Virus record (IMG/VR): IMGVR_UViG_3300008114_000011
DNA: 64,000 nucleotides
Reading direction: 5' to 3' (one strand)
Source: a virus
Taxonomy: Duplodnaviria; Heunggongvirae; Uroviricota; Caudoviricetes
Under the pieces are notes generated by a model. It saw nothing but the letters and a program-made list of their open reading frames with translations, ran no database searches and was not told the DNA's origin. Made by a program: the position numbers and the translations under genes. Of the stretch, positions 33,173 through 62,906 are shown piece after piece (position 1 is the stretch's first letter; each line of letters opens with the position of its first letter).

Positions 33173-33889
33173 ATGAGAAATAATTTAGTAGAGATATTTC
33201 ACGATACTCAAATCAAGTCCGTGAAGTTTAATGATGGTGTTACAACACAACATTCAAATAATGAGATAGTTGGACCTTATTTATCAGTTTATAAAGGTAA
33301 TGTTAAGGTCGTTAATTTAGATACGGTATCTGCTCTTGTAGAGTTATCTAAGTCTGGTAAAACTTGTGGCTTGAATATGGCTTCGTATAAGAAACCGGGT
33401 GGTGGAGTTCGTAATGGAGCCAGAGCTCAAGAAGAATGTTTATTTAGATGTTCTAACTTAATCAATTCAATTGTAGAAGATTTTTATCCATTAGAAGATG
33501 GTACTTGTCTTTATACATCAGATGCTACATTCTTTAAAGATAAGGATTATAATGATATGGAACCGGTTGAGTGTGATATTATTACGATAGCTGCTATAAA
33601 CTTAAACAGTCGTAGTTATGATAAAGAGACTTATGAAGAGATTACACTCCAAAAGATAAGATTGATGCTTACTATCCCATCTAAACATGGTGTTGAGAAC
33701 TTGGTTTTGGGAGCTTTTGGTTGTGGTGTTTTTGGGAATGATCCCCATGTGATGTCAGAATTATTTAGAAAGGTTTTAGTTGAAGAAGGTTATTCATCTT
33801 TATATAAAGAGGTTGTTTTTGCTGTTATAAACGATCATAATTCTGTTGGTAATAATTATAGTGTGTTTTCTGATAAATTCTACTCTTAA
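33173..33889 (+). CDS. bacterial-type poly(ADP-ribose) glycohydrolase-like macrodomain protein (DUF2263 family)
   Basis: PARG signature GGG-x7-QEE (KPGGGVRNGARAQEE) plus GAFGCGVFGNDP. Confidence 0.65.
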   Translation: MRNNLVEIFHDTQIKSVKFNDGVTTQHSNNEIVGPYLSVYKGNVKVVNLDTVSALVELSKSGKTCGLNMASYKKPGGGVRNGARAQEECLFRCSNLINSIVEDFYPLEDGTCLYTSDATFFKDKDYNDMEPVECDIITIAAINLNSRSYDKETYEEITLQKIRLMLTIPSKHGVENLVLGAFGCGVFGNDPHVMSELFRKVLVEEGYSSLYKEVVFAVINDHNSVGNNYSVFSDKFYS

Positions 33890-42396: not shown

Positions 42397-43242
42397 ATGG
42401 AAATGACACCAAAAAACATCATTAAATTAGTAGCGATTTCTTTAGTTTCGCTTATCAGTATTATCATCTTTATCACGTCTTGGGAAGATGTAGAACAAGG
42501 TTCAGAAGGGTTCCTTTATAAACCATATAGTGGAGGTATCCAAAAAGAAGTAATCTATGACGAGGGTACTTACTTTGTAGCTCCTTGGAACGAAATGGTT
42601 ACTTACAACATTCGTCAACAATCAAAACGTGATACAACAACCGTAATGGATATCAACGGTACAGATATCACAGTTGTTTTATCAACTAACTATTCAGCGG
42701 CTAAAGGTAAAACACCTAAACTACACTTAAAACACGGACCTGGTTATATCCAAGTTATTGATGATAAAGTGAAAGGTGCTATTAAAGACGTAATTGGTCG
42801 ATATACTTACCAAGAGGTTTACTCAACTAAACGTGAAGCACTTGAAGAAGAGATTGAGGAAATCCTAAGAGAAGACTTTTCTAAAAACTTTATAACATTG
42901 AACTATGTTGAGTTAGCAGACGTAAACTTACCAGGAGCAATTGCGAATGAGATTGTTAGTAAAGAAACTCAAAAACAGCGAAACTTAACTTCTGAGTTAA
43001 AGAAAACTGAAGAGAAAAACTTAGCAGACGCTAGAATTGAAAAAGCACGTGGTGACTCTTCTTTAATCATTACAGCAACCTTTAAAGCAGAAGCAATTAA
43101 GAAAGAGGCTCAACAATTAAATAAAAACCCTCAGTATATCGAATACATTAAGTGGAAAGGATACGCTGATGGTCAAGGTTCACCTTATGGTTCTGGCAAC
43201 GTCTTTGGTTCAGGGACTACTGTGATAAAAGGAATTAAGTAA
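42397..43242 (+). CDS. SPFH/band-7 (prohibitin/HflC-like) membrane protein
   Basis: N-terminal TM then SPFH-type core and coiled-coil region. Confidence 0.65.
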   Translation: MEMTPKNIIKLVAISLVSLISIIIFITSWEDVEQGSEGFLYKPYSGGIQKEVIYDEGTYFVAPWNEMVTYNIRQQSKRDTTTVMDINGTDITVVLSTNYSAAKGKTPKLHLKHGPGYIQVIDDKVKGAIKDVIGRYTYQEVYSTKREALEEEIEEILREDFSKNFITLNYVELADVNLPGAIANEIVSKETQKQRNLTSELKKTEEKNLADARIEKARGDSSLIITATFKAEAIKKEAQQLNKNPQYIEYIKWKGYADGQGSPYGSGNVFGSGTTVIKGIK

Positions 43243-46404: not shown

Positions 46405-47193
46405 ATGGGAAAACATTATTTATATAAACATATAAGAAATGATAGTAATATCATTTTCTATATTGGTATAGGGACAAAAAATAAATCTGATATAACTTAT
46501 AATAAGTATAGTAGGGCTTTTAATAAAAAAAGGAGAAATAAACATTGGTTAAATACAGTTTCTTTATTGAATGATGATTATTCAATTGAGATAGTATGTG
46601 AGACCGATGATTATGAATATGTGAAAAGTCTAGAAAAAAATCTGATTTTATTTTATGGTAGAAAGGATCTAGGTTTAGGTAATTTAGTAAATATGACAGA
46701 TGGTGGTGATGGTCAAATAAAAAGAGTTTGGAGTGAAGAGTCTAGGAAGAAGGCATCTAAATCACACATTGGTAAAGTAATTGATGGTGAGTGGAAGAAA
46801 AATTTAATAAAAGCTAGATTTGGAAATAAATCACATTCTGGTCGAACTTTTTCAGATGAACATAGAAAAAAAATATCAGAAGCAGGTAAGGGAAAAATAC
46901 CTTGGAATAAGAATAGAGAATTATCCAATGATGAGATTGAAAAAATAAAAAAGGGTATAGAAGAAAATAAAAAAATTTGTTATATTTGTAATGTTGAGTG
47001 TGACTCTGCTAATTATAATAGATGGCATGGTGATAAATGTGAGATGGGATCTATTTTAGATAGGGTTGATGAGATAAAGGATTTATTGTATAATAAAGTT
47101 CCTTTACTTAGGATTAGTAGAGTTTTAGGAATAAAGTATAAATTATTGAGAAGATTAAAAGAGTCAGTTTTATTTAAAGAAGAATTATTATGA
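46405..47193 (+). CDS. GIY-YIG homing endonuclease with NUMOD3 repeats (I-TevI-like)
   Basis: YLYKHI..IIFYIGIG..R..NKHW GIY-YIG core; repeated SEESRKKASKSHIGK / SDEHRKKISEAGKGK. Confidence 0.8.
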   Translation: MGKHYLYKHIRNDSNIIFYIGIGTKNKSDITYNKYSRAFNKKRRNKHWLNTVSLLNDDYSIEIVCETDDYEYVKSLEKNLILFYGRKDLGLGNLVNMTDGGDGQIKRVWSEESRKKASKSHIGKVIDGEWKKNLIKARFGNKSHSGRTFSDEHRKKISEAGKGKIPWNKNRELSNDEIEKIKKGIEENKKICYICNVECDSANYNRWHGDKCEMGSILDRVDEIKDLLYNKVPLLRISRVLGIKYKLLRRLKESVLFKEELL

Positions 47194-47963
47194 AATATTT
47201 AAAAAAGAAATATCCGGATGGTAGCTTTTATGTTGAAGTAGAGGATTTTAGTGAACCTATAATAACCGAAAGAATAAATTCATATGAGGACCTTTTTTTC
47301 ATAAAATCCATCAAAGAGGTTTGTGATTTTAATGGAATTAAAGATGTTGAGTTATTTATACCATGTATGTTTCAACAGCAACATGACCGTAGATTTTTTG
47401 ATAATCAATCATTTGAACTAAAGATAGTTTGTGACTTTATCAACTCATGTAATTTTAGTAAAGTTTATGTTTTCCATCCACATTCTGATTCCACTCAAAT
47501 GGGATTGAATAATATTAGAGTTGTTGATAATTCTAAATTTATATCAAGTGTTTTAAGTAGAATTGATTCTAATCCAATATTATTTTCAACAGATGCTGGT
47601 TCATTTAAATGGATAAATAAATTAGTTGATAAAATAGGATTTAATGGTGATGTTTATTGTGCTAGTAAGTCTAGAGATTTAAAAACACATGATTTGAAGC
47701 AAGTTATTGATTGTTCTGATTTTGGTGGTAGAGATATATTAGTATTGGATGATTTATGTGTAAAGGGTGGTACATTTATAGGTCTATTGAATATGTTAAA
47801 GGAGAGAAATGTTGGTAAGATATACTTAGCAGTTAGTCATATGACTATTCAAGATCCAAATACAAGTCTTGAGTGTTATGATAAGATATTTACTACTAAT
47901 AGTAAGTATGACTATTATGTTCTAAATAATTTAGAATTGATTGATTATAAAAGTATTATATAA
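47190..47963 (+). CDS. ribose-phosphate pyrophosphokinase (Prs)-like phosphoribosyltransferase-fold enzyme; possibly a phage Adps-type ADPR pyrophosphokinase
   Basis: FHPHSD (cf. Prs MDLHADQ), PRPP-binding loop ILVLDDLCVKGGTF, LAVSHMT. Confidence 0.65.
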   Translation: MKYLKKKYPDGSFYVEVEDFSEPIITERINSYEDLFFIKSIKEVCDFNGIKDVELFIPCMFQQQHDRRFFDNQSFELKIVCDFINSCNFSKVYVFHPHSDSTQMGLNNIRVVDNSKFISSVLSRIDSNPILFSTDAGSFKWINKLVDKIGFNGDVYCASKSRDLKTHDLKQVIDCSDFGGRDILVLDDLCVKGGTFIGLLNMLKERNVGKIYLAVSHMTIQDPNTSLECYDKIFTTNSKYDYYVLNNLELIDYKSII

Positions 47964-47968
47964 AAGAT

Positions 47969-48826
47969 ATGAAAAACTTTAAAATAGGAGGTGTTCCCGA
48001 ACACTTCAACTTACCTTGGCGTTTAGCCATTGAAGAAGGAAGATTAAATGATTTAGATGTAAATCTACACTGGTCTGATATGACTGGTGGTACTGGTCAA
48101 ATGATTAAAGGTTTACAAGCAGGTTCAATTGACATCGCAGTTCTTCTTACTGAAGGAATTACAAAAGCAATTTTAGATGGTTTGGATGCCAAAATATTAA
48201 CAGTTTATGTTAAAAGTCCATTACGATGGGGTATTCACGTACCTTTTAATTCAGAAATGAAAACTTCTGATGATATCAAAGGTAAAACATTTGCTATCTC
48301 AAGAGAAGGTTCTGGTTCACACTTAATGGCTTATGTAAACTCATTTCAAAGAGGTTGGAATACCGATGATTTAAAGTTTGAAGTTGTTGGTGATGTTTAT
48401 GGTGGTTTATGGGCTTTAGAGAATGGGCAGTCTGATGTTTTCTTATGGGAAAAGTTTACAACTTATCCATTTGTTAAAGCAGAGAAATGTAAATGTATCG
48501 GTGAAGTTGTAACACCTTGGCCCTGTTTCGTAGTTGCTGTTAGAAACGAGATCTATGAACAACACAAAGATTTGTTAAGAGAAGTTATGAAAGTCGTTGG
48601 TGGTGTCGCAAATGAGATTAAAAACCCATCATTACATGATTTCTATTCAAATGAAATTTCTTGGAGATATAACTTAGAAAAAGATCAAGCTTCTACTTGG
48701 TTGAATGAAGTAGAATGGAACTACACTGGTGATAATGATGTTAATGATTATGAATTAGTAGTTGATTATCTACAAAAAATATCTCTTATTGAAGAAAATA
48801 AAGACTGGAAATCTAAATTATTTTAG
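47969..48826 (+). CDS. NMT1/THI5-like (periplasmic-binding-fold) protein, tentative
   Basis: FKIGGVPEHFNLPW N-terminus resembles the NMT1/ThiY/THI5 family; weak. Confidence 0.35.
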   Translation: MKNFKIGGVPEHFNLPWRLAIEEGRLNDLDVNLHWSDMTGGTGQMIKGLQAGSIDIAVLLTEGITKAILDGLDAKILTVYVKSPLRWGIHVPFNSEMKTSDDIKGKTFAISREGSGSHLMAYVNSFQRGWNTDDLKFEVVGDVYGGLWALENGQSDVFLWEKFTTYPFVKAEKCKCIGEVVTPWPCFVVAVRNEIYEQHKDLLREVMKVVGGVANEIKNPSLHDFYSNEISWRYNLEKDQASTWLNEVEWNYTGDNDVNDYELVVDYLQKISLIEENKDWKSKLF

Positions 48827-48862
48827 AGGTAATAGGTTCTTATATATATAAGTATAAAAGAA

Positions 48863-49846
48863 GTGATACTTATGTTAGAAGAATTTATAAAAAAATCGAT
48901 AGTTAAATTTGGTAATAAATTTGATTATAGTAAGTTTAATTATGTGAATGCTAAAACTAAATCTATAATCATATGCCCAGTACATAAAGATTTTTTTCAA
49001 ACACCTGATAAGCATTTACGTTCAAAATATGGATGTAAATTATGTTGGGAAATTGAAAAAAAGAAAATAAAAAGAGATTATGTAAAGGGTCCAAATATCA
49101 TTTCAAAAGATGAGTTCTTGGGTAGATGTTATGAGAAGTTTGGTGATAAATTCAAATACGATTTATCAAACTACAATGGGTTTGTTGGTGATTATATAAA
49201 AATAACTTGTTCAGAACATGGTGATTTTTATACAAAACCGAATATACATTTATTAAGTAATAACACCTATGGGTGTAAATTATGTGCTAATGATAATAGA
49301 GTACTCAATAAAACACAAACCTATGATGATGTTATAGAAAAATTATCAAATATTTATAATGATAAATATATTTATCCTGAATATAATAGAGATACTTATA
49401 TTAACAAGAGGTCGAAAATAGATATAATTTGTCCGGATCATGGGCTATTTGTTAAGAGTGTTCAAAAACACCAAAGCGGTCAATATTGTTTTGAGTGTAA
49501 AATTAAGAATATGGTTTTTAATAATATTTTAGTTGGTGGTTACACTGAGAAATTATTTGAAGATAAACCAGAATTAAAGGATAAAAAATCTAAATTATAT
49601 TATTTGAGAATAAATAATGGTGATTATTATAAAATAGGAATAACAACAGTTTCGGTTGAAAGTAGAATAAAGTCATTGAAGAGTAAATCTAAAGGTTTTA
49701 TAAAAGATGTTGAGATTTTATTTGAAAAGGAAATGTCTTTATATGAATCATATATCATGGAGAGTAAAATATTAAATGATAATATAGATAGTAGAGTTTA
49801 TAAAAAATGGAGTACTGAAATTTTCAACAAAAATGTTTTGGAATAA
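48863..49846 (+). CDS. homing-endonuclease-like protein: three zinc-ribbon modules plus C-terminal T5orf172/GIY-YIG-like domain
   Basis: three CP-xHG-x-F..H..GC-xxC repeats; KLYYLRINNGDYYKIGITT..R C-domain. Confidence 0.5.
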   Translation: MILMLEEFIKKSIVKFGNKFDYSKFNYVNAKTKSIIICPVHKDFFQTPDKHLRSKYGCKLCWEIEKKKIKRDYVKGPNIISKDEFLGRCYEKFGDKFKYDLSNYNGFVGDYIKITCSEHGDFYTKPNIHLLSNNTYGCKLCANDNRVLNKTQTYDDVIEKLSNIYNDKYIYPEYNRDTYINKRSKIDIICPDHGLFVKSVQKHQSGQYCFECKIKNMVFNNILVGGYTEKLFEDKPELKDKKSKLYYLRINNGDYYKIGITTVSVESRIKSLKSKSKGFIKDVEILFEKEMSLYESYIMESKILNDNIDSRVYKKWSTEIFNKNVLE

Positions 49847-49881
49847 TAGAATAATTATTATCTTTATAAAAAATAAAAACT

Positions 49882-51462
49882 ATGAACTTTTTAGAAATTT
49901 ATTATACCGATGTGTATAAAACAGGACACAAACCAATGCTACCAGTGGGTAGTGTTTTGATGCAATCAAATTTTACACCAAGGAGTGGTAAATATAGCAA
50001 TTGTCCAAATAATGGTAAAATTGTTTCGTTTGGTCAACAAATGATGGTGAGAAAAATGAAACAAGATTGGGATGTTAACTTTTTTCAAAGACCAATTGAA
50101 GAAATCGATCAATTTGGGAAGGATTTAACAGATATGTTAATGCTGAGTGATCCTTTTGATGTTACTCACTTCAAAGAACTACATAAATTGGGATATCTTC
50201 CGATTGAGTTTAGAGCAATCACTGAAGGTGAGAGAATTCCGTATAAAATACCATTATCGACTATCGTTAATACTAAACCTTTAAATGGTCAAGTTTTTGA
50301 CTGGATAGTTAATTACTTAGAAACTATTAATTCTGCTGAATCTTGGCAAGCACCAACTTCAGCGACGCTATCATTCGCATTAAGAGAGTTATCAACAAAG
50401 TGGATCACAAAAACAGATCCGGAGAGTTTGTGGTTTGTTGACTATCAAAATCATGATTTCTCAATGAGAGGTATGGGTGGTAAATCAGCTATTGTTAATA
50501 GTGGTTTAGGATTTGCTACTTGTTCGAGAGGTTCAGATACACTACCTGTTATACCAGCTGCTAGAATGTATTATGATGAAAAAGATGTTTGTATCAACTC
50601 TGTTATCGCATCTGAACATGCTATTATGTGTTCATTGACTGGATTTTTCATTAAGACTAAAGATGGTTCTTGGGATAAGGTTGGTAACTTTGAAGTTGAG
50701 ACATTTAGGTATTTATTAAGAACTTTTCCAACTGGAATATTGTCATTAGTATCTGATACTTGGGATTTATGGAGAGTTATTACGGAGTACTGTCAAATAT
50801 TAAAAGATGAAATTTTAGCAAGAGATGGCAAACTTGTTATCCGTCCTGACTCTGGTGATCCAGTAGATATTATTTGTGGTAGCATAACTCCAGATATGTC
50901 TTCTTATAATGAAAGATACAAACAACCTCAATATAAAGGTGTTATCGAGTTATTATGGGATATCTTTGGTGGTACTGAAACATCAACCGGATATAAAAAA
51001 TTAGACTCACACATTGGTGCTATCTATGGTGACTCTATTAACTATAAGAGAGCTGAGAGTATTTATGAAAGATTATCAGCTAAAGGATTTGCAACAACAA
51101 ACATCGTTCTCGGTGTGGGATCCTATTCACTTCAGATGGTAACACGCGATACACATGGTATGGCTCAAAAAGCAACCTACATCGAAATTGAAGTTGATGG
51201 TGATGTTGAAGGTATCAACATCTTTAAAGACCCTATCACTGATGATGGTACTAAAAAATCAGCAACTGGATTACTAAAAGTAGTTAAAGTTGATGGTGAG
51301 TTTACATTAATTGATAAATGTACTTGGGATGATGTTAACTCGGAAGATAATGAGCTGAAAGTTATCTTCAAAGATGGTAAGTTCTATAACGAAACGACTT
51401 TGACCATCATACGTGGGAAGTTAGAGGATCTTGTTTCTAAAGAACAACCTGAATTAGTTTAA
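49882..51462 (+). CDS. nadV: nicotinamide phosphoribosyltransferase (NAMPT/NadV) family
   Basis: TDVYKTGH, IRPDSGDPVD and NIFKDPITDDGTKKSATGLL match NAMPT blocks. Confidence 0.85.
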   Translation: MNFLEIYYTDVYKTGHKPMLPVGSVLMQSNFTPRSGKYSNCPNNGKIVSFGQQMMVRKMKQDWDVNFFQRPIEEIDQFGKDLTDMLMLSDPFDVTHFKELHKLGYLPIEFRAITEGERIPYKIPLSTIVNTKPLNGQVFDWIVNYLETINSAESWQAPTSATLSFALRELSTKWITKTDPESLWFVDYQNHDFSMRGMGGKSAIVNSGLGFATCSRGSDTLPVIPAARMYYDEKDVCINSVIASEHAIMCSLTGFFIKTKDGSWDKVGNFEVETFRYLLRTFPTGILSLVSDTWDLWRVITEYCQILKDEILARDGKLVIRPDSGDPVDIICGSITPDMSSYNERYKQPQYKGVIELLWDIFGGTETSTGYKKLDSHIGAIYGDSINYKRAESIYERLSAKGFATTNIVLGVGSYSLQMVTRDTHGMAQKATYIEIEVDGDVEGINIFKDPITDDGTKKSATGLLKVVKVDGEFTLIDKCTWDDVNSEDNELKVIFKDGKFYNETTLTIIRGKLEDLVSKEQPELV

Positions 51463-51512
51463 TTTAAACAAGGCACCAAACTTGTAAACTAATTTCTTTA
51501 TTCACTCGTTAA

Positions 51513-51541
51513 AAAACCCACTCAATTGAGTGGGTTTTTTG
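51513..51541. terminator. bidirectional rho-independent terminator between convergent genes
   Basis: AAAACCCACTCA-AT-TGAGTGGGTTTTTT. Confidence 0.7.
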
Positions 51542-51548: not shown

Positions 51549-51932
51549 TTATTCAAATATAGATACTTTTATTTGTGGATTTCTAATAAGTTCTCCATAT
51601 TCCATACCATCATCATATGTTATTACACATTCGTAATTTGGATATTCATCTTTTACTTTTTTAATACCACTATTTATATCATTCATTATATCTTTTGTAA
51701 TTTGGAGATCTTTTATATAATCTTCAATTTTCATAAGAGGTGATCCATCCCAATTATTTCGATAATCTACTTTTGGCTCTGGTAACTTTTCAAACTCTAT
51801 TAAAACAAAATCTTCATCATCAATATATTTGATTTTATCAGACTCTATTAAATCAATAAAGCATAATTTTACATAGTCGTAGTCAAAACTATCATCTTCA
51901 ATATTCTCATTAAACTTTTTTAAGTGTTTCAT
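51549..51932 (-). CDS. hypothetical acidic protein with MKHLKKFNEN N-terminus
   Basis: ORF; shared N-terminal motif. Confidence 0.5.
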   Translation of the reverse strand: MKHLKKFNENIEDDSFDYDYVKLCFIDLIESDKIKYIDDEDFVLIEFEKLPEPKVDYRNNWDGSPLMKIEDYIKDLQITKDIMNDINSGIKKVKDEYPNYECVITYDDGMEYGELIRNPQIKVSIFE

Positions 51933-51947: not shown

Positions 51948-53663
51948 TTATGTACAATCTGGACAATCAATTCTACCATCACCATCACATCGATTACACC
52001 AAATTCTACCTTCACCATCACAATCACCACACTCTCTGGTACCATCACCACCACATCTATCACATTCGTTAGTACAGTCACCCTCACATTCAGAACAATC
52101 TTGTTTACCTGATCCACTACAATAAGAACACTCATTTCCCTCATCATCTTCTCCAGTTCCATCACAACTAGAACAGTCTTCTTTTCCAGTTCCTTCGCAG
52201 TTATCACAAGGTAGAGTACCGTGTCCATCACAATTAGAACATTCTACTTCACCAGAGGCACCACATTCTTCACAATCATATCTTCCATCACCCTCACATT
52301 CATAGCAATCAATTCTTTCATCACCACCACATCTTTCACATTCTTCTCCATTACCACCATCAGTTTCTCTTAGTTCGTAATAGTTACTATTTATTACTAA
52401 TTTTTGCTCATTTGTTAAGAATCCATAATCCCATTCATAATAACAAAGAGTATCTAAATAAGGGTATTTACTAAAGCCGTTCATTTCTAAATCAACTTTA
52501 ATTGTTCCGATGTTTGAATCAGAACCATTAAACATAAACTCTTCCTCTGAAATATTTTGATTTTTCTTATAAACATATCCCATTTTAATTGCGTATTTAA
52601 TAAACAATTCTTGGTCTGGTGAATTACTCACATAAATTCTATCCATAAATGGTTTTCCTTCTGATTCGGTATGTTTTACTAAATTATATTTCGTTATTAC
52701 TCCTTCATCATCACCACCATCCCATGGCATATATTCTGGTTTTTTCCAAAGAAGAGCTCTACCTATAATTTTAGTTGGATCTTCTTTAGATTTTAATATA
52801 ACTAATCCAACACTTTTAGGATTTTTAGAATATATGTTTAAGTAGTCTTGACATCTAGCATGTCTCATACAAGATGCTCCTAAAGTATGATTACCACCTC
52901 GATAATAATTACCTTCATAATAAAACTTTTTAATATCATCACCTTCAACCAATTCAAAATCAGAGAATATATTTTCTTTTTTAGCTTTAGTGGCAATTGA
53001 AAACTTAGTTACAAAATCTTCAACTTCAGTTCCTTTAACTTCTTTACCAGCTTTCTTCAATAGTGATTGAACGAATGATCCAACTCTAACTTCTTGTGAG
53101 GAAACCGCTCCCTCACCAATTTTAAGACCATAATCTTCAATGATAAGATCAATATTCTCACCACTTCTATTAAATCTTATATGATAAATTTTACGTCCTT
53201 GATCAAGATACCATTTTAATCTATTTTTTACATCCTCATCATTAAAATCATCAATACTTGTTATCTGTTTAGTAATAGTAGCTTTTTGGTTTCTTTGAAG
53301 TAATTCATACCAATTCAAAAAACCTTTTTCGACTCTTGGATCTTCAAATAATTTAGCAAATGATGTAAATATTTCTTTTGATAAGATAGACAATGATGCG
53401 CCAAAATCAATTATAACACAAGAGTTTTTAGACTTTTTATCGGATTTAAATTGTATAAAGTTGTCTTTATCATCAGAAATATCAATAAAGTTTGTATCAA
53501 CATCAACGTCAACACCCTCTAAATCTAAAATCTCTTTTGAAAGTGGACTATTAACCGACTTCAAAATTTCTTTGAAATCATCTTTATAAACCATATTACC
53601 TTCAAGTAGTAAATTGAGTTTACTCTCGTTTAGGAAACTATCATATCTTAAAATATTACTCAT
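51948..53663 (-). CDS. hypothetical protein, paralog of 61155..62276, with C-terminal array of ~12 DnaJ-type CxxCxGxG zinc-finger units
   Basis: shared core GxSCM..GRALLWKKP..FMDRIYV..KYPYLDTLC; tail CERCGGD..CYECEGDG..CEECGASG.. Confidence 0.6.
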   Translation of the reverse strand: MSNILRYDSFLNESKLNLLLEGNMVYKDDFKEILKSVNSPLSKEILDLEGVDVDVDTNFIDISDDKDNFIQFKSDKKSKNSCVIIDFGASLSILSKEIFTSFAKLFEDPRVEKGFLNWYELLQRNQKATITKQITSIDDFNDEDVKNRLKWYLDQGRKIYHIRFNRSGENIDLIIEDYGLKIGEGAVSSQEVRVGSFVQSLLKKAGKEVKGTEVEDFVTKFSIATKAKKENIFSDFELVEGDDIKKFYYEGNYYRGGNHTLGASCMRHARCQDYLNIYSKNPKSVGLVILKSKEDPTKIIGRALLWKKPEYMPWDGGDDEGVITKYNLVKHTESEGKPFMDRIYVSNSPDQELFIKYAIKMGYVYKKNQNISEEEFMFNGSDSNIGTIKVDLEMNGFSKYPYLDTLCYYEWDYGFLTNEQKLVINSNYYELRETDGGNGEECERCGGDERIDCYECEGDGRYDCEECGASGEVECSNCDGHGTLPCDNCEGTGKEDCSSCDGTGEDDEGNECSYCSGSGKQDCSECEGDCTNECDRCGGDGTRECGDCDGEGRIWCNRCDGDGRIDCPDCT

Positions 53664-53753: not shown

Positions 53754-54587
53754 ATGGAAAAGGGATATATTTATAAAATAATTTCACCAACTAACAGGAT
53801 TTATATTGGTAAAACTTTTAATTTGGAAAAGAGAGTAAGATCTTATAAAGGTTTATGGTGTAAAAAACAAAGAGTTTTGTATAAATCATTAGTTAAATAT
53901 GGTTGGGATAAACATAGTTTTGAGATACTATTTGAAGATTTTTGTAGTGAGGAATATTTATCTGAGTTGGAGACAAAGTATATAATTGAATATAATAGTT
54001 TTCGAAGATACAACTATAAATTTGGAATGAATTTAACTCTTGGTGGTGAAGGATCTTGTGGATTAAAACATACGGATAAAACTAAAAAAATGATATCCGA
54101 AACTAAGAAAAAGGCTAAAAGAACGGAGAAAGAGATTTTAGCAAGTGAAAAAAGAAGAGGGACTAAGGTTTATAAAAGTGAAGAGTGGATTAAAAATAAC
54201 GCAGAGAGTATAAAAAAACCAATATTGCAATATGATTTGGATGGTAATTTTATCAAAGAATGGAAAAGTGCTAAAGATATTGAATTGGAATTGGGATTTT
54301 CTAGGAAAAACATTTCCTGTAATGTTAGATATAAAAGTAATAGTGCATTTAACTTTATATGGATTTTTAAAAATGCCGATCTTAAAATAGATGATATTCT
54401 AATAAGGAGAAAAAGAGAAAGAAAAAAACCAACTAATAGTATTAAGGTTTTAGATATTGAATGTAATATTGTCTATGATAGTATAATGGATGTAGTTAAA
54501 AATACTAACATGACATATGCTAAAGTTTATCGAGTTATATACAGTAATGATGAGAATAAAAAGTATATTATATATGAAGAGAAATAA
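53754..54587 (+). CDS. GIY-YIG homing endonuclease with NUMOD-type DNA-binding repeats
   Basis: GYIYKI..IYIGKT..R..Y core; HTDKTKKMISETKKKAK repeat. Confidence 0.75.
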   Translation: MEKGYIYKIISPTNRIYIGKTFNLEKRVRSYKGLWCKKQRVLYKSLVKYGWDKHSFEILFEDFCSEEYLSELETKYIIEYNSFRRYNYKFGMNLTLGGEGSCGLKHTDKTKKMISETKKKAKRTEKEILASEKRRGTKVYKSEEWIKNNAESIKKPILQYDLDGNFIKEWKSAKDIELELGFSRKNISCNVRYKSNSAFNFIWIFKNADLKIDDILIRRKRERKKPTNSIKVLDIECNIVYDSIMDVVKNTNMTYAKVYRVIYSNDENKKYIIYEEK

Positions 54588-54978
54588 AATATCTATGGAT
54601 TTTGATAGCACTATGTCACGTAAAGATGTACAAGAATACGCAACCAAACTAGTAAATGAAGGTTATGAAGTTTGGATTGTAACAAGTCGATGTGCTACTG
54701 AACCAGCTTTAGCCAAGGGTTGGTGGTGGGTTGAAAAACAAAATCAAGAGTTATATGATGTTGCTGAATTGGTTGGTATTCCAAGAGAAAGAATACAATT
54801 TACAGAACACGTTGATAAGATTGAGTTTTTAGAAGGTAAAAACTTTATTTTTCATTTAGATGATGATCCGGATGAATTATGGGCTATTATTAGAAGTGGT
54901 GATCCTTGTAAACCGGTAAATGTTGAACATTTTGAATGGTTAGAAACTTGTAAAGAAATTTTAAAAAAATGTAAATAA
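54574..54978 (+). CDS. HAD-like phosphatase/nucleotidase (start uncertain)
   Basis: DxDxT motif ISMDFDSTMS, motif II VWIVTSR. Confidence 0.5.
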   Translation: MKRNKISMDFDSTMSRKDVQEYATKLVNEGYEVWIVTSRCATEPALAKGWWWVEKQNQELYDVAELVGIPRERIQFTEHVDKIEFLEGKNFIFHLDDDPDELWAIIRSGDPCKPVNVEHFEWLETCKEILKKCK

Positions 54979-56024: not shown

Positions 56025-57749
56025 ATGAAAAGAATATTATTTTTACTAACACTATTATTATCATTTAGTTCATTAGCAACTAATTATTATATTAGTTCAA
56101 CCGGAAACAATACAAACAATGGAACATCATCTATTACACCAAAATTAACATTAGCAAACGTTTTCAGCACCTATAATTTAGGTTCTAATGATACTATTTT
56201 CGTTGAAGCAGGAACTTATTCTGAGACAGGTATTACTGTTGGTACTGATGATGAAGGTTTTGTAATTTCTGGTGCGGCTTTATCATCTGGTGTACCTACA
56301 TCTATTTTTGATGCAGGTAGTACCGCAAGATGGTTATTGTTAAATAACACAAATAATGATAATATCACAATCACTAAATTAATTATAAAGGATCATAAAA
56401 ATTCTGATGGAGGTGATCCAGGAGGTGGTGGAGCAATTAAAATAATTGCTGGATGTACAGGATTTAAAGCAACTTATTGTCAGTTTGATAATTGTGATAC
56501 AAGAACTGCCTCTTTACATCACCGAGGTGGTGTTATTTATTCTGCTGAGGGAATAACCATCGATTATTGTACTTTCAAAAATTGTAATGCTGAATATTAT
56601 GGTGGTGCTATTTCAATAGAATTATCACCAACATCATCATCATCAATAAAACATTCAATTTTTTATTCAAATACCGCTACTAATTACGGAGGTGCTATAT
56701 TCTTTGGTGTTGGATCTACCTCTACTCTAACATTAGAAAACTGTTTATTTTATGAAAATAATACATCATCAGGAGAGGCTGTTATTGTTGCTATGAATAC
56801 ATATAGTACATTAAATATTATGAACTGTACTATAACTGCTAATGGTAATGCTTCTGTTGGAACTGGAGGTGTTTTGGCTTTATCATCAGCTAAAATAAAT
56901 TTAATAAATACAATTATTTATAATAATTTAGGTAATACTTTCAATGATGTTTATAATAATGCCGCTACCGTTAACATGACAAATTGTTGTTATGGAAATT
57001 CAGCTGAGATAAAATCAGCTACATCAAATACATCACCGTTAATATCAAATCCACTATTCACAAATAGTGCTAGTGATGATTATACACTTTCTGGTACATC
57101 ACCTTGTATAGATTGGGGAACAACAACCGGAGCACCAACTGATGATTTGAGACATTATAGTCGTATTGGTAATCCAGATGTTGGATGTTATGAATCAAAT
57201 GGTATTGCTTTACCAATTGAGTTGATTTACTTTAAAGTTAAATTTGAAGATGGTGTTGTTAAATTAAGATGGTCAACAGCATCAGAACACAATAATGATT
57301 ATTTCACAATTGAAAAGTCAAAAGATGGTTTAGATTATGATATAGTTACAACTCTACCAGGTGCTGGTAATTCAACTCAAAGAATAAACTATCAAGCAAT
57401 TGATCGAAATATTGAAACTGGAATAACTTACTATCGATTAAAACAAACTGATTATAATGGTGATTATAAAAGAACAGATTGGGAGTCTATATTAATTCAA
57501 TTAAATATTGAGAACTTAACGGTTTATCCAAATCCAATTACAAATGAAATAAATGTTTCTTTACATTCATCTTTTAGTAAGGTTGAAGACTTATTGATAT
57601 ATGATTTAACCGGTAAACAATTTTATAAAAAATCATTAGATTTACAATTAGGTGATAATTATTTTGATGTAGAGTTACCACAACTTTCTAAAGGTCTTTA
57701 CATACTACAAATAGGTGATAAGAAACTTAAACTTGAATATAATGATTAA
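56025..57749 (+). CDS. secreted right-handed beta-helix (pectin-lyase-fold) protein with T9SS C-terminal sorting domain
   Basis: signal peptide; Gly/Asn/Thr-rich beta-helix repeats; C-terminal ~80 aa match Por secretion-system CTD (..LTVYPNPITNEINVS..LYILQIGDKKLKLEY). Confidence 0.7.
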   Translation: MKRILFLLTLLLSFSSLATNYYISSTGNNTNNGTSSITPKLTLANVFSTYNLGSNDTIFVEAGTYSETGITVGTDDEGFVISGAALSSGVPTSIFDAGSTARWLLLNNTNNDNITITKLIIKDHKNSDGGDPGGGGAIKIIAGCTGFKATYCQFDNCDTRTASLHHRGGVIYSAEGITIDYCTFKNCNAEYYGGAISIELSPTSSSSIKHSIFYSNTATNYGGAIFFGVGSTSTLTLENCLFYENNTSSGEAVIVAMNTYSTLNIMNCTITANGNASVGTGGVLALSSAKINLINTIIYNNLGNTFNDVYNNAATVNMTNCCYGNSAEIKSATSNTSPLISNPLFTNSASDDYTLSGTSPCIDWGTTTGAPTDDLRHYSRIGNPDVGCYESNGIALPIELIYFKVKFEDGVVKLRWSTASEHNNDYFTIEKSKDGLDYDIVTTLPGAGNSTQRINYQAIDRNIETGITYYRLKQTDYNGDYKRTDWESILIQLNIENLTVYPNPITNEINVSLHSSFSKVEDLLIYDLTGKQFYKKSLDLQLGDNYFDVELPQLSKGLYILQIGDKKLKLEYND

Positions 57750-62294: not shown

Positions 62295-62906
62295 TTATCT
62301 TTTAATTCTTTTAATAGCACCTTTTATAACAGATTTATGATCAAATGCCATATCAACAATAGTTTCACCACTATAACTAACATCAATCCAATCACATTCA
62401 TCAGCATCATCAGCCGCGGATGTTTCAGGTATATCACTTAAAATAACTGAGAAAGCATAAGAAATACAATTCTTATTTCTTGGATCTCTCCACGGTTCAT
62501 TGAATACATCAATAAATCTCAAATATCTTTTAGGTACTTTTAAACTTGTTTCTTCTTCCAACTCACGAATAGCAGCATCTATTGGTTCTTCACCTTCGTC
62601 AATGTTCCCACCAGGACAAGCCCACTTGCCTTTAAATGGATCTTTATTTCTTAGAATTGCCAACATCTTATAATTTGAGCCAGTATCAACTAAAATAACT
62701 AAATCGACACAAGACATACCCGTATCAACTATCATATCACCATTCAATCTAAAAACATATGTATAACCTTTCTTTATTTGATTTATAGAATTATTTACAA
62801 AATTTCCAGAAGTTGTATAAACTTTACGATCTTTTATATCTAGAACCTTAACAGGTCCAAACCAATCACTCGAATTAAATTGGTTATAAGTTTTAATTTT
62901 TAACAT
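62295..62906 (-). CDS. Nudix hydrolase (ADP-ribose pyrophosphatase-like)
   Basis: Nudix box GGNIDEGEEPIDAAIRELEEETSL. Confidence 0.75.
   Translation of the reverse strand: MLKIKTYNQFNSSDWFGPVKVLDIKDRKVYTTSGNFVNNSINQIKKGYTYVFRLNGDMIVDTGMSCVDLVILVDTGSNYKMLAILRNKDPFKGKWACPGGNIDEGEEPIDAAIRELEEETSLKVPKRYLRFIDVFNEPWRDPRNKNCISYAFSVILSDIPETSAADDADECDWIDVSYSGETIVDMAFDHKSVIKGAIKRIKR

What the first reader, a model, noticed from the sequence alone, without database searches (positions are those of the whole stretch)
47190..51462. NAD+ reconstitution module: NAMPT-family enzyme plus Prs-like pyrophosphokinase, with a Nudix hydrolase nearby; candidate NARP1-type anti-defence pathway
49882..51462 is clearly a NAMPT-family enzyme. 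47190..47963 is a shortened Prs-like phosphoribosyl-pyrophosphokinase. A Nudix ADP-ribose pyrophosphatase-like gene lies at 62295..62906 (minus). Phages carry NAMPT plus Prs either as classical salvage (PRPP + nicotinamide -> NMN), or, in the recently described NARP1 pathway, as Adps (a Prs homolog making ADPR-pyrophosphate from ADPR) plus Namat (a NAMPT homolog joining it to nicotinamide). NARP1 rebuilds NAD+ after Thoeris, DSR or SIR2-type depletion. The Prs-like protein here is ~60 aa shorter than canonical Prs, which fits the Adps idea but does not prove it.
Basis: partly seen in the sequence, partly recalled or inferred. Interest (0 to 1): 0.75.

Follow-up and report, generated by a model that had tools for sequence, protein, structure and literature searches.

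The report
Phage NAD+ rebuilding operon with extra gene
A large phage of Bacteroidota carries the known two-enzyme pathway (NARP1) that rebuilds NAD+ after bacterial defences destroy it, but here, as in five other metagenomic phage-like contigs, a binding-protein gene of unknown function sits inside the operon and may be a new third part.

Summary
ORFs at 47190-47963 (Prs-like, 257 aa), 49882-51462 (NAMPT-family, 526 aa) and 62295-62906(-) (Nudix) exist exactly as described.

The NARP1 reading is supported.
- **Namat:** the NAMPT-like protein falls in the Namat clade (100% bootstrap). Its best solved relative is SPbetaL1 Namat 9W5X at 372 bits, against 154 and 128 bits for Xanthomonas and human Nampt. 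It has the catalytic core and most of the ADPR-PP "selectivity clamp".
- **Adps:** the Prs-like protein is a long-branch member of the phage Adps clade (200/200 bootstraps apart from cellular Prs). It scores 128 bits on an Adps profile and 55 on a Prs profile. Prs genes from Flavobacteriales genomes, the likely host order, give the reverse pattern. One substrate-contact arginine is replaced by glutamine.

The Nudix gene lies 10.8 kb away on the other strand and is not part of the operon.

The new point is the gene between the two enzymes, 47969-48826. It belongs to the orphan CA3427 periplasmic-binding-fold family. In all six phage-type contexts I examined it lies between Adps and Namat. In 77 of 80 Flavobacteriales genomes its orthologue instead follows an ABC-transporter gene. 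It is a candidate third NARP1 component, supported by gene order only.

Overall this is a known system with a new variant.

The parts
46405..47193 (+). Free-standing homing endonuclease (NUMOD3 motif, GIY-YIG-like N-terminus). Its stop overlaps the Adps start codon. It is a mobile insertion at the head of the transcription unit, not a pathway enzyme.
   Evidence: Pfam NUMOD3 E 9.7e-8. The same gene is in the same place in identical metagenome contigs. The ORF overlaps 47190.
47190..47963 (+). Adps-like ADP-ribose diphosphokinase, a divergent PRPS-fold enzyme of 257 aa. Inferred reaction: ADPR + ATP -> ADPR-PP + AMP.

Key residues:
- Y8 aligns with ICP1 F18.
- Q64 aligns with R87 (deviation).
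- F69 aligns with F92.
- H98 aligns with H121.
- D135 aligns with D161.
- K160 aligns with the catalytic K185 (SPbetaL1 K162).
- The PP loop is D187-D188-L-C-V-K-G-G-T-F196.
   Evidence: Residue roles are from PMC13586617.
47969..48826 (+). CA3427-family protein with a type-2 periplasmic-binding-protein fold, 285 aa, no N-terminal extension. Function unknown. It is a candidate accessory component of this NARP1 operon. It was taken from Flavobacteriales-type cellular genes (about 60-65% identity).
   Evidence: Pfam PBP2_Ca3427_like E 3e-13. A profile matches PDB 2X7P at E 1.8e-36. AF2 model pLDDT 90.7, TM 0.90 to 2X7P. Gene order in six phage contexts. Cellular context.
48863..49846 (+). Free-standing homing endonuclease (T5orf172/MUG113 nuclease domain with DUF723-type N-terminal repeats), inserted between the CA3427-like gene and Namat.
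   Evidence: Pfam T5orf172 E 1e-3, DUF723 E 2e-3. PHROG 681 'endonuclease' E 3e-40. A DUF723 gene is at the same position in L106/L107, and absent at this position in L011, L102 and L104.
49882..51462 (+). Namat (nicotinamide ADP-ribose transferase), the Nampt-fold enzyme of NARP1. Inferred reaction: ADPR-PP + nicotinamide -> NAD+ + PPi.

Key residues:
- D10 and Y12 align with D13 and Y15.
- F193, R196, D219, H246, R321 and D323 form the catalytic core.
- The motif G379-A-I-Y-G-D-S-I is Namat-type.
- SCH clamp: G413-S-Y-S-L-Q-M-V-T-R-D423.
- SCL clamp: K37-Y38.
   Evidence: Residue roles are from PMC12774641.
51510..51541 (.). Strong bidirectional intrinsic-terminator-like hairpin (14-bp stem flanked by A and T runs) between the Namat stop and the convergent gene 51549-51932(-). 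It marks the 3' end of the unit.
   Evidence: Six terminator-like sites were found against 1.6 expected, and this is by far the longest stem.
62295..62906 (-). Peripheral, not part of the operon. A stand-alone Nudix hydrolase of the NrtR / NadM-Nudix (ADP-ribose pyrophosphatase-like) group, with a 70-aa N-terminal extension of unknown function.
   Evidence: PDB 2FML 54 bits; NadM-Nudix 2QJT/2QJO 40-41 bits.
33173..33889 (+). Peripheral. A bacterial-type poly(ADP-ribose) glycohydrolase (macrodomain fold) with an intact GGG-x8-QEE signature. This is another ADPR-releasing activity encoded by the same phage, 13 kb upstream of the operon.
   Evidence: Pfam PARG_cat_microb E 1.1e-20. PDB 3SIG 66 bits, with the signature aligned.

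Best explanation
Genes 47190-51462 form one rightward transcription unit of a large, AT-rich (about 28% GC) phage of a Bacteroidota host. The unit encodes NAD+ reconstitution pathway 1 (NARP1).

Proposed mechanism:
1. A host defence NADase (Thoeris, DSR, SIR2-type and similar) splits NAD+ into ADP-ribose and nicotinamide.
2. The PRPS-fold enzyme Adps (47190-47963) transfers the beta,gamma-diphosphate of ATP to the 1''-OH of ADPR, giving ADPR-pyrophosphate.
3. The Nampt-fold enzyme Namat (49882-51462) joins ADPR-PP to nicotinamide, restoring NAD+ so that replication can proceed.

What is shown here: family and clade membership, catalytic and specificity motifs, gene order, and the terminator. 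What is inferred: the substrates and the anti-defence phenotype.

The unit is interrupted by two selfish homing endonucleases and by one non-selfish gene. That gene is a CA3427-family binding-fold protein taken from Flavobacteriales-type hosts. I propose (inference from conserved gene order only) that it is an accessory component. It could bind or convert an NAD-derived metabolite feeding or leaving the pathway, by analogy with the known NARP1 add-ons Adpp (ADPR-1''-phosphate phosphatase) and RyDEP (cADPR glycosidase), which also sit inside NARP1 operons.

The distant Nudix and PARG genes act on related metabolites but are not part of the operon.
For: **Namat**
- The best solved relatives are 9W5X/9W5W, 371.7 bits, E 4e-110. 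PMC12774641 identifies these as SPbetaL1 Namat. Xanthomonas Nampt scores 153.8 bits and human NAMPT 128.
- The reciprocal control behaves oppositely. Caulobacter phage Ccr5 Nampt, which lies next to a NadM-Nudix gene, gives 322.8 (Xanthomonas Nampt), 230 (human) and 147 (Namat) bits.
- In the NJ tree the window protein is inside the Namat clade at 100/100, together with the proven SPbetaL1, FADO and ICP1 enzymes.
- The catalytic core is intact: HDFSMRG, GSDT, EH, RPDSG.
- It has the Namat-type 'GAIYGDSI' (Nampt has 'RVIQGDGI'), 'FTPRSGKY', and the clamp motif GSYSLQMVTRD.

**Adps**
- In the NJ tree the window clade nests within the phage Adps clade, 200/200 bootstraps apart from bacterial class I and archaeal class III Prs.
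- An Adps HMM built without its own clade scores it 128.0 bits, against 55.1 for a canonical Prs HMM. Proven Adps give 172-254 against 65-117. Cellular Prs give 97-138 against 184-413.
- Twenty-six housekeeping Prs from Flavobacteriales genomes, the likely host order, give 128-146 against 295-360.
- It falls below the TIGR01251 cut-off, as the proven ICP1 and FADO Adps do (67.9, 98 and 96.5 bits; cut-off 113).
- The hairpin 'SKSRDLKTHDL' matches the Adps 'K-x-R-D-x-x-T' with the catalytic Lys. The PP loop 'DDLCVKGGTF' keeps the Adps-type Cys and Phe. The C-terminus is short.

**Linkage**
- Only two genes separate the partners, within the ten-gene criterion of Osterman et al..
- The 68%-identical homologue in a 623-kb contig has the two genes directly adjacent.
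- Sixty-four of 80 related IMG/VR loci have both genes within 8 kb.

**Operon boundaries**
- Intergenic gaps are 36 nt or less, and a strong terminator lies at 51510-51541.

**CA3427-like gene**
- It lies between Adps and Namat in 6 of 6 phage-type contexts, with different neighbours in each: a homing endonuclease, a DNA methylase, or small ORFs.
- It never lies near Namat in 80 cellular loci.
Against: - **No biochemistry.** Namat enzymes keep PRPP-dependent NMN synthesis in vitro (PMC12774641), so sequence cannot exclude mixed use.
- **The Adps is an outlier.**
  - Its absolute score on the Adps profile (128 bits) is no higher than what cellular Prs obtain.
  - It lacks the N-terminal strand and helix.
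  - The residue aligned with ICP1 Arg87 is Gln, within an invariant 'FQQQHDRRF' in its clade. Arg87 contacts the ADPR adenine and is conserved in both Adps and PRPS.
  - Asp216 of the PP loop is Val, although the genetically proven FADO Adps has Ser there.
- **The Namat clamp is incomplete.** Position 7 is Met, not the usual Tyr/Phe; the closest relative, L009, has Phe.
- **The trees are limited.** They are neighbour-joining trees on 15-35 hand-picked sequences. Archaeal Prs and the PDB sequences are fragments copied from alignments.
- **The CA3427-like gene rests on synteny alone.**
  - It is absent from 80/80 of the nearest IMG/VR Namat loci and from the closest two-gene relatives.
  - Its tree is unresolved, so the number of independent acquisitions is unknown.
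  - Its cellular partner is an ABC transporter, which suggests no obvious link to NAD.
Confidence: 0.75

Rival explanations
1. Classical salvage. The Prs-like enzyme makes PRPP from ribose-5-phosphate. The NAMPT-family enzyme makes NMN from PRPP and nicotinamide. A host NMN adenylyltransferase, or a phage one outside the window, completes NAD+ (NARP2-like logic).
For: - Namat enzymes retain PRPP-dependent NMN synthesis in vitro (PMC12774641).
- The window Adps is very divergent and lacks the Arg87 equivalent.
- Its Adps-profile score is in the range cellular Prs reach.
- Only 64 kb of a genome of at least 172 kb was seen, so an NMNAT elsewhere cannot be excluded.
- A Nudix of the ADPR-pyrophosphatase-like group, which would supply ribose-5-phosphate, is present.
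Against: - Both proteins fall in the NARP1 clades, not with Prs or Nampt.
- Prs-profile scores are 55 bits against 295-360 for Prs from Flavobacteriales genomes, the likely host order.
- Nampt-type motifs are absent.
- No NMNAT signature motif was found in six-frame translations of the window.
- Osterman et al. found no phage with both pathways, and a Namat within ten genes for 97% of Adps-clade genes.
Confidence: 0.12
2. It is a NARP1-type operon, but the CA3427-like gene is an unrelated host-derived passenger (a 'moron' or auxiliary metabolic gene). It landed in a permissive, insertion-prone spot, as the homing endonucleases and the DNA methylase did.
For: - The Adps-Namat interval is an insertion hot spot. 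Only 17 of 64 IMG/VR loci have the genes directly adjacent.
- Clearly unrelated genes occur there: Thg1, homing endonucleases, a DNA methylase.
- The gene is absent from most NARP1 loci.
- Its cellular context is an ABC transporter.
- The six contexts may descend from one or few acquisitions (tree unresolved).
Against: - All six phage-type copies examined are in this one interval, next to Namat or separated from it only by a homing endonuclease. This holds even though the Adps genes share only 28-31% identity and the other inserted genes differ.
- The CA3427 binding-site residues E11/H12, R112 and E161/T164, and more than 100 other columns, are invariant between phage and cellular copies. The protein is therefore under selection for its native ligand.
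- Several other recurrent inserts at this spot are ADPR-related (Macro/Adpp, NADAR).
Confidence: 0.4
3. The divergent Adps clade (Gln in place of Arg87, Val in the PP loop, truncated N-terminus) has shifted specificity. It may pyrophosphorylate a different acceptor (a modified ADPR or another ribosyl compound) or use a different donor. The operon would then rebuild NAD+ or a related dinucleotide by a variant route.
For: - The clade has invariant, clade-specific substitutions in the two loops that hold donor and acceptor in ICP1 Adps.
- It sits on a long branch.
- The partner Namat has Leu and Met at two of the three usually aromatic clamp positions.
Against: - The catalytic Lys, the DD pair and the His and Asp contacts are kept.
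- FADO Adps, proven in vivo, also lacks Asp216.
- The partner enzyme has the full nicotinamide site and the adenine-stacking Tyr415 and K37-Y38.
- The closest relatives are ordinary two-gene NARP1 loci.
Confidence: 0.15

Closest known systems
NARP1 (Adps + Namat) of Bacillus phages SPbetaL1 and FADO, Escherichia phage Bas63 and Vibrio phage ICP1 (Osterman et al., bioRxiv 10.1101/2024.02.11.579819; PMC12774641; PMC13586617)
   Same: - The same two folds in the same order (Adps upstream of Namat), with both proteins inside the respective clades.
- The Namat catalytic core, 'GAIYGD' and the GS..TRD clamp.
- The Adps catalytic Lys hairpin, the DD pair, the Cys/Phe PP loop, and loss of the PRPS C-terminal helices.
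   Different: - Identity to proven enzymes is only about 43-46% (Namat) and about 30% (Adps).
- The Adps is shorter (257 aa against 277-293 in the proven enzymes), lacks the N-terminal strand, and has Gln for Arg87 and Val for Asp216.
- Namat clamp position 7 is Met.
- The partners are separated by two inserted genes.
- The host is Bacteroidota. Searching Osterman et al.'s supplementary tables for Tenacibaculum, Cellulophaga or Flavobacterium phages found none (Table S1 is stored truncated).
Extended NARP1 operons: NARP1-AP (Adps - Macro-domain Adpp - Namat, Vibrio phage Gary; 10.64898/2026.01.28.702374) and the RyDEP-containing NARP1 of mycobacteriophage DyoEdafos (10.64898/2026.05.28.727677)
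   Same: A third, non-selfish gene is embedded between or next to Adps and Namat. In the known cases it converts a variant NAD breakdown product (ADPR-1''-phosphate, 2'/3'cADPR) into ADPR for the pathway.
   Different: The embedded gene here is neither a Macro nor a RyR domain. It is a CA3427-family periplasmic-binding-fold protein with no known ligand or activity. No Macro-domain gene lies within two genes of the operon. The function is untested.
NARP2 / classical phage salvage (Vibrio phage KVP40 Nampt + NMNAT-Nudix NatV; represented here by Caulobacter phage Ccr5 Nampt + NadM-Nudix)
   Same: A NAMPT-fold enzyme and a Nudix of the NadM-Nudix/ADPRase-like group are both encoded by the phage.
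   Different: The NAMPT-fold enzyme is only 28-29% identical to the Nampt-clade phage proteins and falls outside their clade. The Nudix is stand-alone, without an NMNAT domain. No NMNAT motif was found in the window.
CA3427 of Candida albicans (PDB 2X7P/2X7Q; PMC3073944) and its Bacteroidetes orthologues
   Same: Profile E 1.8e-36. The predicted structure superposes at TM 0.90. The proposed binding-site residues (Glu11, His12, Arg112, Glu164/Thr167 equivalents) are conserved. Like those proteins, it has no signal peptide.
   Different: This copy is encoded by a phage and embedded in an NAD+ reconstitution operon. Flavobacteriales orthologues instead follow a 589-aa fused ABC transporter gene. 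The family has no assigned function, so 'same function' cannot be judged.

Membership tests
NARP1 - Adps | Falls in the phage Adps clade, separate from cellular ribose-phosphate diphosphokinases (the criterion of Osterman et al.) | tested here: met
   - NJ tree: 200/200 bootstraps separate all phage-type sequences, including the window clade, from bacterial and archaeal Prs.
- Adps HMM 128 bits against Prs HMM 55 bits, with controls in both directions.
- PHROG 619 scores 148 bits, against 68 bits for TIGR01251.
- Caveat: it is a long branch, and the trees are NJ on a hand-picked set.
NARP1 - Adps | A Namat homologue within ten genes | tested here: met
   Two genes lie between them (PBP-like and homing endonuclease), on the same strand, with gaps of 36 nt or less. 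The genes are directly adjacent in the 68%-identical relative L009.
NARP1 - Adps | Catalytic hairpin lysine (ICP1 K185 / SPbetaL1 K162) and the DD pair that positions the distal ribose | tested here: met
   K160 in 'SKSRDLKT', and D187-D188. All are invariant in 25 clade members.
NARP1 - Adps | Remodelled PP loop (Adps 'DD[IL]C-D-G-G-x-T-F' against PRPS 'DDM[IA]-D-T-G-G-T-[LI]') | tested here: inconclusive
   The window has 'DDLCVKGGTF'. The Adps-type Cys and Phe are present, but Asp216 is replaced by Val and Gly by Lys. Proven FADO has 'DDLSSYGGTF', so Asp216 is not universal.
NARP1 - Adps | Acceptor-adenine contacts Phe18, Arg87 and Phe92. These are conserved contacts shared with PRPS, so they do not discriminate Adps from Prs. 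| tested here: not met
   Y8 and F69 are conserved, but the Arg87 equivalent is Gln64 within an invariant 'FQQQHDRRF'. This lowers confidence in ordinary ADPR binding. It does not favour Prs, which also has the Arg.
NARP1 - Adps | Loss of the PRPS C-terminal alpha11-alpha12 regulatory/filament module | tested here: met
   71 residues follow the DD motif, against 59-86 in Adps and 96-108 in cellular Prs.
NARP1 - Adps | Converts ADPR + ATP to ADPR-PP | not testable with these tools
   Needs purified protein and LC-MS.
NARP1 - Namat | Falls in the Namat clade, distinct from the Nampt clade | tested here: met
   - 100% bootstrap.
- 372 bits to SPbetaL1 Namat, against 154 and 128 to Nampt.
- The reciprocal control with Ccr5 Nampt behaves oppositely.
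- Identity is bimodal in INPHARED: 35-46% to the Namat group, 26-29% to the T4-like Nampt group.
NARP1 - Namat | Nampt-like catalytic core (SPbetaL1 D13, Y15, F189, R192, D215, catalytic His, R306, D308) | tested here: met
   D10, Y12, F193, R196, D219, H246, R321 and D323 all align.
NARP1 - Namat | [quoted passage not shown] | tested here: inconclusive
   The window has G413-S-Y-S-L-Q-M-V-T-R-D423. The frame, GS, TRD and the aromatic at position 3 are met. Position 7 is Met (Phe in L009; Tyr in most Namats). Nampt has GG[GA]-LLQ-x-x-[DT]RD.
NARP1 - Namat | SCL loop supplying a stacking residue: Arg, or Lys/Tyr followed by the stacking residue | tested here: met
   K37-Y38 aligns with R40 of SPbetaL1. 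The same 'KY' occurs in the FADO and ICP1 Namats. This rests on alignment only, and the loop is 3 residues longer.
NARP1 - Namat | Prefers ADPR-PP over PRPP and yields NAD+ | not testable with these tools
   Needs an enzyme assay.
Canonical ribose-phosphate diphosphokinase (Prs) | Reaches the NCBIfam subfamily or equivalog cut-offs | tested here: not met
   TIGR01251 67.9 bits against a cut-off of 113. The best equivalog scores 65 against 296.
NARP2 (Nampt + Nmnat) | Nampt-clade enzyme plus an NMN adenylyltransferase in the same genome | tested here: not met
   The enzyme is outside the Nampt clade. No (H/T)xGH NMNAT motif occurs in the six frames of the window. The Nudix has no NMNAT domain. 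Genome outside the 64-kb window was not seen.
NARP1-AP / RyDEP-extended NARP1 | A Macro-domain Adpp or a RyR-domain glycosidase inside the operon | tested here: not met
   No Macro or RyR hit among the operon genes or their neighbours. The only macro-fold gene is the PARG at 33173-33889, 13 kb away.
CA3427 family (PBP2_Ca3427_like) | Sequence and fold similarity to CA3427, with the conserved inter-domain site | tested here: met
   Pfam PF22384 50.5 bits against a cut-off of 27. Profile E 1.8e-36 to 2X7P. TM 0.90. E11, H12, R112, E161 and T164 are invariant.
ADP-ribose pyrophosphatase-type Nudix | Nudix box with catalytic REx2EE, and similarity to the NadM-Nudix/NrtR group | tested here: met
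   'GGNIDEGEEPIDAAIRELEEETSL'. NCBIfam NMNAT/Nudix 60 bits and NtrR 57 bits, both far below their cut-offs. PDB 2FML, 2QJT and 2QJO. A Pro 16 residues after the box fits the ADPRase signature as I recall it, which is a lead and not a test. The substrate is untested.

The most novel reading that the evidence does not exclude
The CA3427-family binding-fold protein would be a genuine third component of a NARP1 variant in Bacteroidota phages. It would bind, protect, channel or convert an NAD-derived metabolite: for example nicotinamide or another pyridine compound, ADPR-PP, or a variant NADase product that Adps cannot use. This would add a third kind of extended NARP1 after Adpp and RyDEP. It would also give the first functional handle on an orphan family conserved across Flavobacteriales and most fungi, where CA3427 was examined as a possible antifungal target.
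Probability: 0.3. Interest if true: 0.8.

Novelty: new variant of a known kind. Interest (0 to 1): 0.55.

Why it matters
NARP1 itself is established. It was described in 2024, is found in about 4% of sequenced phages, and the structures of both enzymes are solved. Finding one more copy is therefore ordinary. Three things go beyond that.

1. **Host range.** This extends NARP1 to large phages of aquatic Flavobacteriales-type hosts, through a deep and abundant Adps subclade. There are 388 homologues in metagenomes, on contigs up to 623 kb. Their substrate-binding loops depart from the solved ICP1 enzyme, which tests the 'sequence-structure rule' just proposed for annotating Adps.

2. **A candidate accessory gene.** A host-derived protein of the orphan CA3427 family recurs inside the operon. 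The two earlier cases of a gene embedded in NARP1, Adpp and RyDEP, each revealed a new layer of the NAD+ arms race. The same logic gives a concrete ligand panel to test for a protein family that has had a structure but no function since 2011.

3. **A wider pattern.** The Adps-Namat interval is an insertion hot spot that also holds NADAR and nucleoside-deoxyribosyltransferase-like genes. That points to further untested accessories.

Tried and rejected
- **Megablast of the module against 50,697 phage records:** no match. The phage has no close cultured relative. The best Namat hit is Tenacibaculum phage PTm1 at 45.7%.
- **KVP40 as the NARP2 reference:** I fetched the wrong 50-kb region and gave up. 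I used Caulobacter phage Ccr5 (Nampt next to NadM-Nudix) and two T4-like phages instead.
- **PDB 9KE8/9KEO:** no paper was found. It is 55% identical to FADO Namat, so I treated it as a Namat-clade protein of unknown source.
- **IMG/VR scan with the single PBP protein:** nothing. With an alignment it gave one locus, L016.
- **PBP phylogeny to count acquisitions:** the backbone is unresolved (6-14% support), so no conclusion.
- **Idea that window ORF 54517-54978 (a DxDxT motif) belongs to the 144-aa family inserted in 16 IMG/VR NARP1 loci:** rejected, since BLASTP E is 0.12 and only the motif matches. It has no Pfam hit.
- **PADLOC scan of the module genes:** nothing relevant.
- **Sigma-70 promoter scan:** 71 sites against 62.9 expected, so uninformative. 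Bacteroidota promoters are also not covered by the tool.
- **Fold search with the Adps model:** it confirms the PRPS fold but cannot separate Adps from Prs. No Adps structure is in either PDB copy.
- **Nudix as a module member:** rejected on distance, strand and the intervening terminator.
- **Literature search for any link between NARP1 and PBP/SsuA/NMT1-type proteins:** none found in the library searched.

Full report
**1. What is there**

The window is AT-rich (25-34% GC) and packed with small rightward ORFs. It carries several features typical of a large phage:
- three free-standing homing endonucleases and an intein;
- one tRNA;
- an IF-3 homologue;
- a protein with a type IX secretion sorting domain.

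The Prs-like protein is found, 100% identical, on contigs of up to 171,766 bp; the contexts retrieved are metagenome contigs. Megablast finds no cultured relative. I therefore read it as part of a large phage of a Bacteroidota host. The best cellular matches of one of its genes are Crocinitomicaceae and Fluviicola.

The region 46405-51462 contains five same-strand genes with gaps of 36 nt or less:
1. a homing endonuclease;
2. the Prs-like gene;
3. a CA3427-family binding-fold gene;
4. a second homing endonuclease;
5. the NAMPT-family gene.

A 14-bp-stem bidirectional terminator follows at 51510-51541.

**2. The NAMPT-family protein is a Namat**

- *Solved relatives.* Its best solved relatives are 9W5X and 9W5W (371.7 bits, E 4e-110), which PMC12774641 identifies as SPbetaL1 Namat. 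Xanthomonas Nampt scores 153.8 bits and human NAMPT 128.
- *Reciprocal control.* The Nampt of Caulobacter phage Ccr5 is encoded next to a NadM-Nudix gene, the NARP2 arrangement. It scores 322.8, 230 and 147 bits against the same three targets.
- *Phage records.* Against 50,697 phage records, identity is bimodal. It is 35-46% to the Staphylococcus K-like, FelixO1-like, ICP1, Listeria and Bacillus group that carries NARP1. It is 26-29% to T4-like and Caulobacter phage Nampts.
- *Tree.* A neighbour-joining tree places it, with its 71%-identical relative L009, inside the Namat clade at 100% bootstrap.
- *Motifs.* The alignment shows the shared catalytic core (HDFSMRG, GSDT, the catalytic His, RPDSG). 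It also shows three Namat-specific features:
  - 'GAIYGDSI', where Nampts have 'R[VI][IL]QGD[GE][IVM]';
  - 'FTPRSGKY' in the beta1-beta2 loop (SCL), where K37-Y38 aligns with the stacking Arg40 and matches the Lys-plus-next-residue type described for Bas63;
  - the SCH motif GSYSLQMVTRD, which fits the published consensus GS-X-phi-X-phi-X-phi-TRD.
- *Deviation.* The adenine-stacking aromatic at position 3 is present, but position 7 is Met (Phe in L009).

**3. The Prs-like protein is a divergent Adps**

*Family scores.*
- It fails every cellular Prs model: TIGR01251 gives 67.9 bits against a 113-bit cut-off.
- The biochemically proven ICP1 Adps (98 bits) and the genetically proven FADO Adps (96.5 bits) fail it too.
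- It matches the phage family PHROG 619 at 148 bits.

*Tree.* I used reference sequences from Table S1 of Osterman et al., the ICP1 and FADO loci, E. coli Prs and archaeal fragments.
- The window protein and six relatives form a long branch nested in the Adps clade.
- That clade separates from bacterial and archaeal Prs in 200 of 200 bootstraps.

*Profile test.*

| Sequence set | Adps HMM (bits) | Prs HMM (bits) |
|---|---|---|
| Window protein (Adps HMM built without its clade) | 128 | 55 |
| Proven Adps, leave-one-out | 172-254 | 65-117 |
| Cellular Prs | 97-138 | 184-413 |
| 26 housekeeping Prs from Flavobacteriales genomes (likely host order) | 128-146 | 295-360 |

Even so, the protein is an outlier, because its absolute Adps score is low.

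*Residues, read against the ICP1 structure paper.*
- Kept:
  - the catalytic hairpin Lys (K160, in 'K-S-R-D-L-K-T');
  - the DD pair;
  - the His121 and Asp161 equivalents;
  - the Adps-type Cys and Phe of the PP loop ('DDLCVKGGTF');
  - the short C-terminus.
- Changed:
  - Arg87 to Gln, within an invariant FQQQHDRRF;
  - Asp216 to Val (FADO has Ser);
  - the N-terminal strand and helix are missing.

The AlphaFold2 model is confident (pLDDT 90.6) and has the PRPS fold. No Adps structure is in the libraries for comparison.

**4. Linkage and alternatives**

- The 68%-identical Adps in a 623-kb contig is directly followed by its Namat.
- Of the 80 IMG/VR loci most similar to this Namat, 64 have an Adps within 8 kb. 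Most of the others are short or truncated contigs.
- The window contains no NMNAT motif, and the Nudix has no NMNAT domain. The NARP2 or classical reading therefore has little support.
- That reading cannot be excluded for genome outside the window, and Namat enzymes can still use PRPP in vitro.

**5. The gene in the middle**

*Identity.* ORF 47969-48826 is a type-2 periplasmic-binding-fold protein without a signal sequence.
- Pfam PBP2_Ca3427_like.
- A family profile hits only Candida albicans CA3427 in the PDB (2X7P, E 1.8e-36).
- The predicted structure (pLDDT 90.7) superposes on 2X7P at TM 0.90. The next-best matches are Thi5, SsuA and ThiY.
- The CA3427 paper reports a conserved inter-domain site, failed soaks with PLP and amino acids, and no function. 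It noted the family's restriction to fungi and Bacteroidetes.
- The phage protein is 59-65% identical to Flavobacteriales orthologues. It shares more than 100 invariant columns with them, including the proposed site residues.

*Context in phages.* Every phage-type copy I looked at lies between an Adps and a Namat:
- the window type: Adps, PBP, homing endonuclease, Namat;
- L011: Adps, DNA methylase, PBP, Namat;
- L106: Adps, methylase, PBP, DUF723 endonuclease, Namat;
- L102: Adps, 127-aa ORF, PBP, Namat;
- L104: Adps, four small ORFs, PBP, Namat;
- L016: Adps, 1.8-kb gap, PBP, 1.6-kb gap, Namat.

The Adps genes of these loci are only 28-31% identical to the window's.

*Context in cells.* In 77 of 80 Flavobacteriales genomes the orthologue directly follows a 589-aa fused ABC_membrane/ABC_tran gene. 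None of the 80 loci contains a Namat.

*Rarity.* The gene is absent from the 80 nearest IMG/VR Namat loci, has no PHROG family, and no paper in the library searched links such a protein to NARP1.

*Precedent.* Genes embedded in NARP1 operons have twice turned out to feed the pathway: the Macro-domain Adpp and the RyR-domain RyDEP. In the IMG/VR loci the same interval also holds Macro-like, NADAR and nucleoside-deoxyribosyltransferase-like genes. It holds clearly unrelated ones too, such as Thg1.

*Assessment.* I therefore rate a functional link as plausible but unproven. The phylogeny could not resolve how many times the gene was acquired.

**6. Nudix and PARG**

The Nudix at 62295-62906(-) belongs to the NrtR/NadM-Nudix group and has an intact Nudix box. 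It lies 10.8 kb away on the other strand, so it is not part of the operon. An ADPR pyrophosphatase would, if anything, compete with Adps for ADPR.

The window also encodes a bacterial-type PARG with the catalytic GGG...QEE signature. This phage therefore carries several enzymes acting on ADP-ribose.

**7. Verdict**

- The finding is real and the NARP1 interpretation is supported as far as sequence, structure prediction and gene order allow.
- The system is already known.
- The divergent Adps subclade and, above all, the recurrent CA3427-family insert make it a new variant worth an experiment.
- Confidence is about 0.75 in NARP1 function. It is about 0.3 that the inserted gene is a functional third component.

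Noticed in passing
window 47969-48826 (+); also L011:6001-6852, L102:6001-6876, L104:6001-6849, L106:2902-3756, L016:6001-6849: A CA3427-family PBP-fold gene of unknown function (fungi plus Bacteroidota) lies between Adps and Namat in all six phage-type contexts examined. In 77/80 Flavobacteriales genomes its orthologue directly follows a fused ABC transporter gene.
   Followed up: yes
window 33173-33889 (+): A bacterial-type poly(ADP-ribose) glycohydrolase (Pfam PARG_cat_microb E 1e-20; PDB 3SIG 66 bits) with an intact GGG-x8-QEE signature. It is a second ADPR-releasing enzyme in the same phage. It may counter ADP-ribosylating defences or supply ADPR.
   Followed up: partly
window 58500-59033 (+): A phage-encoded translation initiation factor IF-3 homologue with both the N- and C-terminal domains (Pfam E 5e-19 and 8.5e-26).
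   Followed up: no
window 46405-47193, 48863-49846, 53754-54587 (+); 59137-61158 (-): Three free-standing homing endonucleases (NUMOD3/GIY-YIG-like, T5orf172/DUF723, GIY-YIG/NUMOD1), two of them inside the NARP1 unit. There is also an intein (Hint + LAGLIDADG) in a P-loop ('GAPGIGK') gene that reads as two adjacent ORFs (60181-61158 and 59137-60168).
   Followed up: partly
window 51948-53663 (-) and 61155-62276 (-): Two paralogous proteins share a central 'YY..NY...G.LG.SCM' region and end in Cys-rich tails; the tail of the 571-aa copy carries many CxxCxGxG-like repeats. Neither has a hit in Pfam, PHROGs or PADLOC.
   Followed up: no
window 56025-57749 (+); 29970-30770 (+); 26015-26084 (+); 42397-43242 (+): A secreted-type protein with a T9SS C-terminal sorting domain, which points to a Bacteroidota host. 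Also a tyrosine recombinase, a tRNA-Leu(TAA), and an SPFH/Band-7 protein.
   Followed up: no
IMG/VR loci L022-L101 (for example L098:3139-3657, L030:4215-4688, L087:1692-2168, L091:7507-7938, L063:6891-7385): In 64 NARP1 loci only 17 have Adps and Namat directly adjacent. Recurrent genes inserted between them are:
- a Macro-like 173-aa protein (17 loci; presumably the known Adpp type, on a weak Pfam Macro hit);
- an unannotated 144-aa DxD protein (16 loci);
- an unknown 165-aa protein (10 loci);
- Nuc_deoxyri_tr2 (9 loci);
- NADAR (7 loci);
- Thg1 (6 loci).

The NADAR and deoxyribosyltransferase-like inserts look like further untested NARP1 accessories.
   Followed up: partly
window 47190-47963 and relatives P0002-P0120: This Adps subclade (388 metagenome homologues, on contigs up to 623 kb) has an invariant 'FQQQHDRRF' in place of the '(A)R(Q/A)DR' loop that is conserved in both Adps and PRPS. 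It also starts directly at the 'KYPDG' strand.
   Followed up: partly
L007:5974-7469: A contig with identical Adps, PBP-like and endonuclease proteins has its Namat gene called as two ORFs (53 + 442 aa), with residues 54-81 missing. This is either a natural deletion or frameshift variant or an assembly error.
   Followed up: no
L001 (Tenacibaculum phage PTm1, AP019524.1 89725-107200): The closest cultured-phage Namat (45.7% identity) has no Adps or CA3427-like gene within 8 kb either side. It reads 'GCIYGNTI' where other Namats have 'GAIYGD[SA]I', so it may be an orphan or altered Namat.
   Followed up: no
PHROG 12872; Shigella phage Ag3 entry in Table S1 of 10.1101/2024.02.11.579819: A 547-position PHROG profile matches both the window Adps (profile 57-221) and the window Namat (374-540). 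In the Table S1 entry the Adps sequence runs on into Namat-like sequence. Adps-Namat fusion proteins therefore seem to exist.
   Followed up: no
L108-L187 (Flavobacteriales genomes): In 26 of 80 genomes the ABC-CA3427 gene pair lies about 2 kb from the housekeeping prs gene, on the opposite strand; the ribosomal L25/Ctc-like gene is a similarly frequent neighbour (24 loci). This is probably lineage synteny without meaning, but it is the only NAD/PRPP-related neighbour seen.
   Followed up: no
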